From: Escherichia coli
GTDB lineage: Bacteria > Pseudomonadota > Gammaproteobacteria > Enterobacterales > Enterobacteriaceae
Assembly: GCF_003334405.1 (NCBI RefSeq)
Contig: NZ_QOWM01000002.1
Length of the DNA stretch: 64,000 bases
Direction: 5' to 3' (one strand)
Shown here: piece after piece, positions 6,001-9,000 of the stretch
Position numbering within the stretch: position 1 is the first letter of the stretch
How the letters are laid out: each line of letters begins with the position of its first letter
Position numbers: made by a program

Positions 6001-9000
6001 CGCCACTTCAACCACATCCGGGATCAGGTCGTAGCCTTCCGGATGGGCCAGGGTGACATCCATACCGAAGCGAGTCATCAGACCGATGATGCCTTGTGGT
6101 ACAGAGAGCGGTTTGCCATAGCTTGGAGAGTAGGCCCAGGTCATGGCGATTTTTTTACCTTTCAGGTTTTCCAGTGAACCAAAGTGTTCACGTAACCACG
6201 CGAGGTCAGCCATTGACTGAGTCGGGTGGTCAATATCGCATTGCAGGTTCACTAAAGCCGGACGCTGTGGCAGTACACCCTGCTTGTAACCGTCATCAAG
6301 TGCAGCGCCAACTTCACGCATATAGGCGTTGCCTGCGCCCAGATACATATCGTCGCGAATACCAATAGCGTCGGCGCAGAAGGAGATCATATTGGCGGTT
6401 TCACGCACGGTTTCGCCGTGAGCGATTTGTGATTTGCCTTCGTCGAGATCTTGTTGTGCAAGGCCGAGCAGGTTAAGCGCGGAAGCATAAGAGAAGCGGG
6501 TACGGGTGGAGTTGTCGCGGAATACGGAAATACCTAATCCACTATTAAAGACTTTGGTTGAGATGTTTTCAGCACGCAGTGCTTTTAATGCTGCGGCAAC
6601 GTCCAGTACTTGTTTCAGTTCATCTGGCGTCTGTTCCCACGTTAACAAAAAATCTTTCTCGTGAAGGTGAGAGGTCAGCGAATTGATATCCTTAATCAGC
6701 TCATTAACAGTTTTCATCATAAAGTCCCGGTAGTGGAATGACAGGCAAAGTGGTTTATTTCACTGTGACTTGCCAAAGTGATTGGTGTTTTCACAGCTAT
6801 ACCTGGGACTAACAATAAGTGTGCCAGAATTATCCGCGCGGCTGCAAAAGACTAATTTGACGGATAATGTGTGGGGTTGATCACAAATTGATGCCAGCTT
6901 CTGGTTGTTTGTAAAATACGAAAACGTTTGGCTTTTTTTATCGCGTTATTTATTTGCTGCTAAGTATCAGAAATAAGATAAAGGGGCAGGCTATCTCTCT
7001 TCAGTTTGATAAACTCACCGCCGTAATTCTCATATTGATATAGAAATGTGATATCTCTTCCATAATTTCATTAGAAAATGATAAAAATCTTATGTTTTTA
7101 TCAAAGCCAATTTCGCCTGAGTTAATATCATCATGATCTGTGAACCATCAACGTCTTCAATGATCGACTTTTAAGTAAGTCTGGAAGGTAAAGCTATGGA
7201 GCTTGCTACTACGCAGTCAGTATTGATGCAAATTCAACCGACAATTCAGCGTTTTGCCAGAATGCTTGCCAGCGTTTTGCAGCTTGAGGTTGAGATCGTT
7301 GATGAAAACTTGTGTCGCGTTGCCGGAACGGGCGCGTATGGGAAGTTTCTTGGTCGCCAGTTGAGCGGCAACTCACGCCTGCTCCGCCACGTCCTGGAAA
7401 CGAAAACTGAAAAAGTTGTGACACAGTCTCGCTTCGATCCCCTTTGCGAAGGTTGCGATAGTAAAGAAAATTGCCGCGAAAAAGCATTTCTGGGTACGCC
7501 TGTCATTTTACAGGATCGTTGTGTTGGGGTGATAAGTTTGATTGCCGTTACCCACGAGCAACAAGAGCATATCAGTGATAATTTACGCGAATTTTCTGAT
7601 TATGTTCGCCATATATCCACCATTTTTGTTTCGAAACTTCTGGAGGATCAGGGGCCAGGAGATAACATCAGTAAAATATTTGCGACCATGATCGATAATA
7701 TGGATCAGGGCGTATTAGTTGTAGATGATGAAAATCGGGTTCAGTTTGTTAATCAGACTGCCTTAAAAACACTTGGTGTTGTGCAAAATAATATTATTGG
7801 GAAACCTATCCGTTTCAGACCATTAACATTTGAGAGTAATTTTACCCATGGACATATGCAGCATATTGTTTCATGGGACGATAAAAGTGAATTAATCATT
7901 GGTCAATTGCATAACATTCAGGGCCGACAATTATTTTTAATGGCGTTTCACCAATCGCATACCAGTTTTTCTGTAGCAAATGCACCTGATGAACCGCATA
8001 TTGAACAATTGGTTGGCGAGTGCCGTGTTATGCGGCAATTAAAACGACTCATTAGCCGTATTGCACCCAGCCCATCCAGCGTTATGGTGGTTGGTGAAAG
8101 CGGCACGGGTAAAGAAGTCGTCGCCCGTGCAATCCATAAGTTGAGCGGAAGACGGAATAAACCCTTTATTGCTATCAACTGTGCCGCGATTCCGGAGCAG
8201 CTTCTGGAGAGCGAACTGTTCGGTTATGTTAAAGGTGCATTTACTGGCGCTTCTGCCAACGGTAAAACAGGGTTGATTCAGGCGGCGAATACGGGCACGC
8301 TGTTTCTCGATGAAATAGGTGATATGCCATTAATGTTGCAGGCTAAATTACTGCGCACTATTGAGGCACGTGAAATTCTGCCGATTGGTGCCAGTAGCCC
8401 AATACAAGTCGACATTCGCATCATTTCTGCAACTAATCAGAATTTGGCCCAGTTCATTGCCGAAGGTAAATTCCGCGAAGATCTCTTCTACCGACTTAAT
8501 GTTATCCCGATAACTCTGCCACCGCTGCGTGAACGTCAGGAAGATATTGAACTATTGGTGCATTACTTTTTACATCTGCATACCCGTCGTCTGGGATCGG
8601 TTTATCCTGGCATTGCTCCCGATGTCGTCGAAATATTGCGTAAGCATCGTTGGCCCGGAAACCTGCGCGAGTTAAGCAATTTGATGGAATATCTGGTTAA
8701 CGTGGTTCCTTCAGGTGAAGTTATCGACAGCACGCTATTGCCGCCAAATCTGCTGAATAATGGCACAACGGAGCAAAGTGATGTAACAGAGGTCAGTGAG
8801 GCGCACCTGTCACTCGATGATGCGGGCGGCACGGCGCTGGAGGAGATGGAAAAGCAAATGATCCGCGAGGCGCTTTCACGTCATAACAGCAAGAAGCAAG
8901 TTGCTGATGAACTGGGCATCGGCATTGCTACGCTCTATCGCAAGATTAAGAAATATGAGTTGTTAAACACATAACCTCAGTGAATCCGGCCTGAATTCAG

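What the first reader, a model, noticed from the sequence alone, without database searches (positions are those of the whole stretch)
6811..6827. Candidate sigma54 promoter upstream of ygeW with a non-canonical -12 element
The minus strand reads TGGCAC-N5-TTGT about 90 nt upstream of the ygeW ATG. The -24 element is a perfect match but the -12 has GT in place of the highly conserved GC, so this is either a weak or atypical sigma54 promoter or a chance match. Its placement beside the GAFTGA-containing activator ygeV makes it worth testing.
Basis: partly seen in the sequence, partly recalled or inferred. Interest (0 to 1): 0.3.

Follow-up and report, generated by a model that had tools for sequence, protein, structure and literature searches.

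The report
Known sigma54 promoter of ygeW operon
The motif is real and is the already published sigma-54 promoter site in front of the E. coli uric-acid-breakdown operon ygeWXY-hyuA-yqeA; its odd -12 base (T instead of C) is a conserved trait of this promoter in about 40 species, not an error or a chance match.

Summary
The minus strand at 6827..6811 reads CTGGCACACTTATTGTT, 90 nt before the ygeW ATG, next to the divergent GAFTGA activator gene ygeV.

It is not new. This exact 17-mer is sigma54 ChIP-seq site OS30 of Bonocora et al. 2015 (weak occupancy, FAT 3). It lies under an RpoN-holoenzyme gSELEX peak (Shimada 2021). A sigma54 promoter for ygeW was predicted in 2011 (Francke et al.).

My own tests agree:
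- A leave-one-out PSSM gives 13.4 bits. That is the only hit in the intergenic region and rank 7 of 128,000 positions in the window.
- The motif sits at the same place upstream of ygeW in 42 gamma- and betaproteobacterial species. TGGCA and TTG are invariant. The -12 "C" position is T, A or G, never C.
- Conserved TTATCA-N3-TGATAA palindromes lie upstream (centre -234 in E. coli). These are probable YgeV/UacR enhancer sites and recur at xdhA, ygfK and ygfT/uacT.
- A conserved CRP-like site is centred at -77.5.

GT at -12 has precedent in the confirmed pspA and pspG promoters.

Verdict: a genuine but weakly occupied sigma54 promoter, already known. Interest is low. The transcript start and its rpoN/ygeV dependence were not found in the papers I could read.

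The parts
6811..6827 (-). Sigma54 core promoter CTGGCACACTTATTGTT. The -24 GG is at 6825/6824 and the -12 GT at 6813/6812.
   Evidence: Sequence. Leave-one-out PSSM 13.37 bits. Identical to ChIP-seq site OS30 of Bonocora 2015. Conserved in 42 species. Within E. coli, TGGCA and TTATTGTT are invariant in the four sequences aligned (the window plus three divergent genomes).
6800..6800 (-). Predicted transcription start (motif centre + 19 nt, the convention of Bonocora et al.), giving an 80-nt leader. Corresponds to about NC_000913.3 position 3,006,182.
   Evidence: Inferred from motif geometry. Not experimentally mapped in any paper I could read.
6721..6799 (-). ygeW 5' leader, with a hairpin CUGUGA...UCACAG near its 5' end and a conserved GCCNGTCATTC block before the Shine-Dalgarno sequence.
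   Evidence: Alignments; fold (z = -0.77, unremarkable); no Rfam match.
5530..6720 (-). ygeW CDS (carbamoyltransferase of the reductive uric acid pathway), first gene of ygeW-ygeX-ygeY-hyuA-yqeA.
   Evidence: ORF; annotation; enzymology in PMC12507026.
6870..6885 (-). CRP-like site TGTGATCAACCCCACA, centred at -77.5 from the predicted start.
   Evidence: One mismatch to TGTGA-N6-TCACA. Found at -76.5 to -78.5 in Enterobacterales and Aeromonas. PMC12507026 mentions a native Crp site in this intergenic region and glucose repression of uricolysis.
7027..7041 (-). Candidate YgeV/UacR enhancer (UAS) ATATCAATATGAGAA, a degenerate TTATCA-N3-TGATAA palindrome centred at -234.
   Evidence: The palindrome (2 or fewer mismatches) is present upstream in 33 of 35 species at -175 to -265. 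The same 14-mer TATCAATATGAGAA lies in the ygfT/uacT spacer, and a perfect TTATCATAATGATAA lies upstream of ygfK. Binding by YgeV is inferred.
6998..7012 (-). Second palindrome-like element TTATCAAACTGAAGA, centred at -205.
   Evidence: The TTTATCA half-site is conserved across Enterobacterales.
7079..7104 (-). Inverted repeat TTGATAAAAACATAAGATTTTTATCA (TGATA/TATCA half-sites), centred near -292 from the predicted ygeW start, nearer the ygeV start than the other palindromes. Possible further YgeV site or ygeV autoregulation site.
7196..8974 (+). ygeV (uacR/isrR), the divergent sigma54 enhancer-binding protein.
   Evidence: Pfam domains PAS, Sigma54_activat, AAA_lid_14 and HTH_8; GAFTGA at residue 347; annotation.

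Best explanation
This is the sigma54 (RpoN) promoter of the ygeW-ygeX-ygeY-hyuA-yqeA operon, which encodes the lower part of the anaerobic, reductive uric acid degradation pathway.

Shown: RNA polymerase-sigma54 binds the -24 TGGCAC and the -12 TTGT and forms a weakly occupied closed complex.

Inferred: the divergently encoded PAS-AAA+-HTH activator YgeV (UacR) binds TTATCA-N3-TGATAA palindromes about 205-235 bp upstream. From there it loops to the closed complex and uses ATP hydrolysis and its GAFTGA loop to open the promoter. Transcription would then start near 6800, giving an 80-nt leader.

Also inferred: a conserved CRP-like site centred at -77.5 lies between enhancer and promoter. It most likely acts as the DNA-bending or co-activating element that makes the operon glucose-repressible.

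The T in place of the consensus C at -12 is a lineage-wide property of this promoter. It probably keeps closed-complex occupancy low, or changes the -12 fork-junction lock, so that expression depends strictly on the bound activator.
For: In vivo and in vitro binding:
- The exact 17-mer is in vivo sigma54 ChIP-seq site OS30. Its peak centre is 5 bp from the motif centre, its FAT is 3, and it is assigned to ygeW 80 nt downstream (PMC4591121).
- An RpoN-holoenzyme gSELEX peak lies in the ygeV/ygeW spacer (PMC8743547).
- A sigma54 promoter for b2870 was predicted by comparative genomics in 2011 (PMC3162934).

Sequence tests here:
- The leave-one-out PSSM gives 13.37 bits, above 31% of bona fide sites, and is the unique hit in the intergenic region.
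- In 42 species the best upstream hit lies 66-110 nt before the ATG (229 nt in one Photobacterium), with TGGCA and TTG invariant.
- It co-occurs with a ygeV homologue. It is absent upstream of ygeW in the Bacteroidota, Riflebacteria and Verrucomicrobia loci, where no ygeV homologue flanks ygeW (one uncultured-bacterium locus, L079, has only a partial 40%-identity AAA+ match downstream).

Activator and upstream elements:
- YgeV has the full bEBP architecture and GAFTGA.
- Conserved palindromes occur at a nearly fixed distance, and the same motif recurs at xdhA, ygfK and ygfT/uacT.
- The CRP-like site is positionally conserved, and glucose repression plus a native Crp site are reported.

Expression and precedent:
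- ygeWXY belong to the YgeV iModulon.
- The operon is called UacR-regulated, citing Iwadate & Kato 2019.
[quoted passage not shown] In E. coli the RT-qPCR in that paper showed induction of ygfK and ygfT.
- GT at -12 is also found in the confirmed pspA and pspG promoters.
Against: - No transcript start, and no rpoN- or ygeV-dependence of ygeW mRNA, was found in the papers I could read. Bonocora et al. deliberately say 'binding site', not promoter.
- Occupancy is among the lowest 6 of 42 intergenic sense sites.
- YgeV binding to the palindromes and CRP binding to the -77.5 site are inferred from sequence conservation only.
- The enhancer distance (-205 to -235) is on the long side for bEBPs.
Confidence: 0.85

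Rival explanations
1. Sigma54 holoenzyme binds here, but the site is not the main ygeW promoter. ygeW would be transcribed mainly from a CRP-dependent sigma70 promoter, and the sigma54 site would be poised, auxiliary or silent.
For: A conserved CRP-like site lies 53 bp upstream of the -24 element. Glucose repression of uricolysis is reported. Sigma54 occupancy is low. Many ChIP-detected sigma54 sites have no known transcript.
Against: The sigma70 consensus scan finds no promoter-like site downstream of the CRP site on the ygeW strand other than one overlapping the start codon, and the count equals the shuffle expectation. The -24/-12 core is invariant across 42 species while the flanks diverge, and it tracks the presence of ygeV. 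The CRP site keeps a fixed distance to the sigma54 motif. ygeWXY co-vary with other sigma54/YgeV targets.
Confidence: 0.1
2. Chance resemblance: a TGGCAC-N5-TTGT string with no relation to sigma54.
For: The 10-specified-base pattern alone is expected 0.24 times per window, and 23% of shuffles contain one. It lacks the consensus C at -12.
Against: Published ChIP-seq and gSELEX show binding. Only 0.7% of simulated intergenic regions reach the PSSM score. The element is conserved in position across 42 species, with its core positions invariant.
Confidence: 0.02
3. The real sigma54 promoter is the other TGGCA string, CTGGCATCAATTTGTGA at 6897..6881, 70 nt further upstream.
For: It contains CTGGCAT and a TTTGT stretch.
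Against: The GG-to-G spacing is wrong. Its PSSM score is -3.05 against 13.37. Its 3' half is the left arm of the CRP-like site. TGGCAT is not conserved outside E. coli. The ChIP motif call is the downstream site.
Confidence: 0.01

Closest known systems
Sigma54 ChIP-seq site OS30 (ygeW) of Bonocora, Smith, Lapierre & Wade 2015, PLoS Genet (PMC4591121)
   Same: It is the same object: identical 17-mer, same gene, same distance to the start codon.
   Different: Nothing differs. The paper reports binding only, not transcription or the activator.
pspA and pspG sigma54 promoters of E. coli (PspF-dependent)
   Same: They have a perfect or near-perfect -24 TGGCAC/T with TTGT at -12 (TTGGCACGCAAATTGTA, TTGGCATGATTCTTGTA), and are experimentally confirmed sigma54 promoters.
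   Different: They have higher in vivo occupancy (FAT 21 and 15 against 3), a different activator (PspF, which has no sensory domain), and IHF rather than a CRP-like site between enhancer and promoter (the IHF point is from my own knowledge).
Other promoters of the YgeV/UacR group: xdhA (OS29, window 12732-12748), ygfK (OS31), ygfT (OS32)
   Same: They are sigma54 sites in the same purine/urate catabolic island, with upstream TATCA/TGATA-type repeats, and belong to the same iModulon.
   Different: All three carry the canonical GC at -12 (TTGCC, TTGCT, TTGCA). Only ygeW lacks the C.
prpR-prpBCDE divergent sigma54 unit of E. coli and Salmonella
   Same: A bEBP gene is divergent from a catabolic operon with a sigma54 promoter, and CRP-dependent catabolite repression acts in the shared intergenic region (recalled from Lee et al. 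2005, J Bacteriol; not checked here).
   Different: The activator family branch, effector and enhancer sequences are different. The resemblance is architectural only.
DioR sigma54 regulon of Clostridiales (Nie et al. 2019, PMC6615313)
   Same: A sigma54/bEBP pair controls dpaL, ygeW-ygfK-ssnA-ygeY and related genes, that is, the same uricolytic gene set.
   Different: It is in Firmicutes and the regulator is named differently. I did not examine its promoter or enhancer sequences.

Membership tests
Sigma54 (RpoN)-dependent -24/-12 promoter | -24 element TGGCA(C/T) with invariant GG | tested here: met
   CTGGCAC at 6827..6821. TGGCA is invariant in 42 species.
Sigma54 (RpoN)-dependent -24/-12 promoter | Fixed spacing: 10 nt between the GG and the -12 G(C) dinucleotide | tested here: met
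   GG at 6825/6824 and GT at 6813/6812. The same spacing holds in all 42 species.
Sigma54 (RpoN)-dependent -24/-12 promoter | Overall match to a matrix of in vivo bound sites, at the level of bona fide sites | tested here: met
   The leave-one-out PSSM gives 13.37 bits, above 31% of 134 ChIP sites and rank 7 of 127,968 in the window. It is the unique hit in the intergenic region.
Sigma54 (RpoN)-dependent -24/-12 promoter | Canonical C of the -12 GC (typical but not obligatory: 124 of 135 bound sites have it) | tested here: not met
   T at 6812. Eleven of 135 ChIP sites also lack GC, including the confirmed pspA and pspG promoters. I therefore do not treat this as excluding membership. A C here would raise the score to 18.76.
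Sigma54 (RpoN)-dependent -24/-12 promoter | Bound by sigma54 holoenzyme | not testable with these tools
   Published: ChIP-seq OS30, FAT 3, and a gSELEX peak at 3004270 with 53-55% intensity.
Sigma54 (RpoN)-dependent -24/-12 promoter | Cognate bEBP with a GAFTGA loop, and upstream enhancer sites | tested here: met
   YgeV domains and GAFTGA are present. Conserved TTATCA-N3-TGATAA palindromes lie upstream in 33 of 35 species and at three other YgeV-group promoters. Binding itself is inferred.
Sigma54 (RpoN)-dependent -24/-12 promoter | Transcription start about 12 nt downstream of the -12 element, dependent on rpoN and the activator | not testable with these tools
   No 5'-end or mutant expression data for ygeW appeared in the papers read. 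The only indirect support is iModulon co-expression and a review calling the operon 'UacR-regulated'.

The most novel reading that the evidence does not exclude
The missing -12 C may be an evolutionarily maintained design feature of the ygeW promoter rather than a defect.

In 42 gamma- and betaproteobacterial species the position is T, A or G, with at least 4 independent changes and never C. A single change to C would make the site near-optimal, and the sister promoters xdhA, ygfK and ygfT keep GC.

Alongside this sit an enhancer palindrome at a nearly fixed -234/-235 and a CRP-like site fixed at about -77.5. Together these would define a deliberately weakly locked, weakly occupied sigma54 promoter class. 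Its firing would need both the bound activator and CRP-induced bending, which could serve as a natural model for how the -12 base tunes basal versus induced output.
Probability: 0.35. Interest if true: 0.35.

Novelty: already known. Interest (0 to 1): 0.15.

Why it matters
The operon downstream encodes the lower half of the anaerobic uric acid degradation pathway, which gut bacteria use and which is being engineered into probiotic E. coli against hyperuricaemia. Knowing its native control (sigma54, YgeV/UacR, CRP) is practically useful.

The promoter itself is already catalogued, so the finding adds nothing new. The modest additions here are threefold:
- The non-consensus -12 base is conserved as 'anything but C'.
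- A candidate YgeV/UacR recognition palindrome is shared by four promoters of the island.
- A CRP-like site is positionally fixed relative to the promoter.

All three can be tested directly with reporter fusions and footprints.

Tried and rejected
- **Second TGGCAT string at 6897..6881.** It has the wrong spacing, a PSSM score of -3.05, and is not conserved.
- **Sigma70 consensus scan of 6650-7260.** It found two weak matches, equal to the shuffle expectation. Neither is a plausible ygeW promoter downstream of the CRP-like site.
- **Structured RNA in the leader.** There is no Rfam match at E <= 1, the fold z-score is -0.77, and RNAalifold gives no consensus structure on a MAFFT alignment of 17 leaders. 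A 5'-proximal hairpin is visible by eye in most species but was not tested on a structure-aware alignment.
- **The repeat finder on the enhancer region.** It missed the short palindromes; these were found by alignment and pattern scans instead.
- **E. coli strain H3, used as reference for the island.** It carries an IS-associated deletion of ygeY to ygfT, so MG1655 was used instead.
- **Reitzer & Schneider 2001 (PMC99035).** The paper is not held.
- **Literature search for 'UacR'.** It was swamped by the clinical abbreviation for urinary albumin/creatinine ratio. Iwadate & Kato 2019 could only be cited second-hand.
- **Significance of 'never C'.** With at least 4 parsimony changes, the neutral chance of never hitting C is about 0.2. 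Selection against C is therefore suggestive, not proven.

Full report
**Identity of the region.** The window is Escherichia coli chromosome. The 701 bases around the finding are 100% identical to many complete E. coli genomes and are present in 5182 of 5426 of them. PGAP annotates ygeV (a sigma-54-interacting regulator) and ygeW (knotted carbamoyltransferase) on either side. In window coordinates:
- ygeW is 6720..5530 on the minus strand.
- ygeX is 5472..4276 and ygeY is 4218..3007, both on the minus strand.
- ygeV is 7196..8974 on the plus strand.
- xdhCBA lie beyond it on the minus strand.

**The observation.** Read on the minus strand, 6827..6811 is CTGGCACACTTATTGTT. GG is at 6825/6824 and GT at 6813/6812, separated by the canonical ten bases. 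The motif ends 90 nt before the ygeW ATG. The description is therefore exact. YgeV has PAS, Sigma54_activat, AAA_lid_14 and HTH_8 domains and a GAFTGA motif at residue 347.

**More than chance?** The bare string is unimpressive: 0.24 matches are expected per window and 23 of 100 shuffles contain one. Consensus with one mismatch occurs 6 times against 5.9 expected.

I therefore built a position-specific matrix from the 135 in vivo sigma54 sites tabulated by Bonocora et al. 2015, leaving this site out.
- The site scores 13.37 bits, higher than 31% of genuine sites.
- It ranks 7th of 127,968 positions in the window. The top eleven also include three other published ChIP sites: xdhA at 12732-12748, ptrA at 63115-63131 and recC at 57787-57803.
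- Within the 475-nt ygeV-ygeW spacer it is the only hit on either strand; the next best scores 0.72.
- The other TGGCAT string, at 6897..6881, scores -3.05.
- Only 145 of 20,000 simulated spacers reach 13.37 on the ygeW strand.

**It is already published.** Table 1 of Bonocora et al. (PMC4591121) lists site OS30:
- ChIP-seq peak centre 3004190 and motif centre 3004185 (U00096.2).
- Motif CTGGCACACTTATTGTT, plus strand, gene ygeW.
- 80 nt from the predicted start to the ATG.
- Fold-above-threshold score (FAT) 3, with no EcoCyc entry at the time.

The coordinate offset to NC_000913.3 (1978 bp) places this motif exactly where it lies in MG1655. Other published evidence:
- Shimada et al. 2021 (PMC8743547) found an RpoN-holoenzyme genomic-SELEX peak in the ygeV/ygeW spacer.
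- Francke et al. 2011 (PMC3162934) had already named b2870 (ygeW) as a new likely sigma54 regulon member.
- Lamoureux et al. [quoted passage not shown]
- A 2025 review calls ygeWXY-hyuA-yqeA a UacR (=YgeV)-regulated operon, citing Iwadate & Kato 2019.

Occupancy is low. FAT 3 is among the lowest six of the 42 intergenic, gene-oriented sites, whose median is 11.

**The -12 element.** Among the 135 bound sites the -12 dinucleotide is GC in 124, GA in 6, GT in 4 and TC in 1. The GT group includes the experimentally confirmed pspA (TTGGCACGCAAATTGTA) and pspG (TTGGCATGATTCTTGTA) promoters. GT is therefore unusual but has precedent. A single T-to-C change would raise this site to 18.76 bits, close to the best in E. 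coli.

**Comparative evidence.** A scan of one genome per species with the YgeW protein returned 80 loci. In 42 gamma- and betaproteobacterial species the best upstream PSSM hit (11.7-15.6 bits) lies 66-110 nt before the start codon, or 229 nt in one Photobacterium. The species cover Escherichia, Citrobacter, Atlantibacter, Edwardsiella, Klebsiella, Enterobacter, Kluyvera, Serratia, Hafnia, Morganella, Kosakonia, Cedecea, Erwinia, Aeromonas and Photobacterium, plus two betaproteobacterial MAGs and one Rhodanobacteraceae MAG.
- Positions 2-6 (TGGCA) and 13-15 (TTG) are invariant.
- Position 16, the consensus C, is T in 22, A in 14 and G in 6 species, and never C.
- On a YgeW tree this needs at least four changes. 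The position is therefore free to vary yet has not drifted to the consensus. The neutral chance of that is about 0.2, so avoidance of C is suggestive only.
- The sister promoters xdhA, ygfK and ygfT keep GC in E. coli.
- The motif tracks ygeV. A ygeV homologue lies next to ygeW in most of these loci. ygeW loci from Bacteroidota, Riflebacteria, Verrucomicrobia and similar groups have no adjacent ygeV homologue (L079 has only a partial downstream AAA+ match) and no hit above about 8 bits. There, however, ygeW may not be the first gene of its operon.
- Within E. coli the flanks and the spacer vary, but TGGCA and TTATTGTT do not.

**Upstream architecture.** Alignment of 25 intergenic regions shows three conserved blocks besides the core promoter.

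The first is a TTATCA-N3-TGATAA palindrome.
- In E. coli it reads ATATCAATATGAGAA at 7041..7027, centred at -234.
- With two or fewer mismatches it occurs in 33 of 35 species at -175 to -265, and at -234/-235 in most Enterobacteriaceae. The window-wide background is 0.12 per equivalent length.
- It is flanked by further TATCA half-sites at 7053..7047, 7012..6998 and 7104..7079.
- In MG1655 the same motif lies upstream of ygfK (perfect TTATCATAATGATAA at about -202), in the ygfT/uacT spacer (an identical 14-mer, TATCAATATGAGAA), and in related form upstream of xdhA.
- TATCA/TGATA density there is about four times the window average.
- I infer that these are the YgeV/UacR enhancer sites. I found no published motif for comparison.

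The second is a CRP-like TGTGATCAACCCCACA at 6885..6870, centred at -77.5. An equivalent site sits at -76.5 to -78.5 in Enterobacterales and Aeromonas. A 2025 paper on the pathway mentions a native Crp-binding site in this spacer and shows glucose repression of urate degradation that is relieved by promoter replacement.

The third is a conserved start region and leader. No Rfam family matches, the fold is not unusually stable, and RNAalifold finds no consensus.

**Mechanism.**
- Shown (published, and consistent with my scans): sigma54 holoenzyme occupies the site weakly.
- Inferred: YgeV/UacR bound about 205-235 bp upstream loops to the closed complex, helped by CRP-induced bending at -77.5. 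It then remodels the complex by ATP hydrolysis through its GAFTGA loop, so that transcription starts near 6800.
- On the -12 base, the literature is relevant. The -12 GC is where sigma54 Region I and the HTH set up the repressive fork junction (PMC5095919). Altering the TGCA around -12, or having a less conserved -12 C, correlates with activator-bypass transcription (PMC4551910).
- A non-C here could therefore lower closed-complex stability, which fits FAT 3. It could also loosen the lock. Which of the two applies is untested.

**Function of the operon.** YgeW phosphorolytically cleaves the 2-ureido group. YgeY and YgeX finish the conversion to pyruvate in the reductive uric acid pathway (PMC12507026). 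The homologous genes are urate-induced in gut anaerobes. In Clostridiales they form a sigma54/DioR regulon (PMC6615313).

**Verdict.** What remains unshown in the papers available to me is the transcript start and its dependence on rpoN, ygeV and crp.

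Noticed in passing
window 7027-7041, 6998-7012, 7047-7053, 7079-7104 (minus strand); L085 (MG1655) upstream of ygfK, ygfT/uacT and xdhA: A TTATCA-N3-TGATAA palindrome family is conserved upstream of ygeW in 33 of 35 species at a nearly fixed distance. It is shared by four promoters of the urate/purine island, including an identical 14-mer TATCAATATGAGAA in the ygfT/uacT spacer. It is the probable YgeV/UacR recognition sequence, and I found no published motif for it.
   Followed up: partly
window 6870-6885 (minus strand): A CRP-like site TGTGATCAACCCCACA is centred at -77.5 from the predicted sigma54 start. It is positionally conserved (-76.5 to -78.5) in Enterobacterales and Aeromonas. 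This is consistent with the reported Crp site and glucose repression, and it may play the architectural role usually filled by IHF.
   Followed up: partly
window 6811-6827 compared with 41 other species (loci L001-L054): The -12 consensus C is replaced by T (22 species), A (14) or G (6) and never by C, with at least 4 independent changes. The sister promoters xdhA, ygfK and ygfT keep GC.
   Followed up: yes
window 12732-12748 (minus strand): CTGGCGTAAATCTTGCC is the top sigma54 PSSM hit in the window (15.9 bits), 94 nt before xdhA. It is the published xdhA site OS29. Upstream it has TATCA/TGATA repeats at -156, -127/-120 and -89.
   Followed up: partly
window 63115-63131 (+) and 57787-57803 (-): These are high-scoring intragenic sigma54 motifs, identical to published ChIP sites IS33 (ptrA) and IA22 (recC).
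   Followed up: partly
window 42197-42213 (+), 41535-41551 (+), 52982-52998 (+), 15979-15995 (-) and 15966-15982 (+): These sigma54-like motifs score 13.4-15.0 bits but are not in the high-stringency ChIP list. The four hits I located (42197, 41535 and the pair at 15966-15995) lie inside ORFs; 52982-52998 was not placed. The two at 15966-15995 overlap on opposite strands. They may be low-stringency sites or chance matches.
   Followed up: no
window 6717-6722 (minus strand): ygeW has two adjacent ATG codons (MMKT...). The MG1655 annotation starts at the first (396 aa), whereas PGAP in other strains starts at the second (395 aa). Most other genera have only the second methionine.
   Followed up: partly
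window 6721-6800 (minus strand): The 80-nt ygeW leader is identical in the six Escherichia-type sequences aligned (four E. coli, Escherichia sp. E1V33, Citrobacter sp. MGH106) apart from a few substitutions, while the region upstream of -24 diverges. It starts with a hairpin (CUGUGA...UCACAG) that has counterparts (GCUGG...CCAGC, GCUGUG...CACAGC) in other genera, and it has a conserved GCCNGTCATTC block before the SD. There is no Rfam match and no thermodynamic signal.
   Followed up: partly
L084 (E. coli strain H3, NZ_CP028732.1): In this human faecal strain an IS1 sits directly after dpaL (ygeX), and the island from ygeY to ygfT is missing. The sigma54 promoter there drives only ygeW-ygeX.
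   Followed up: no
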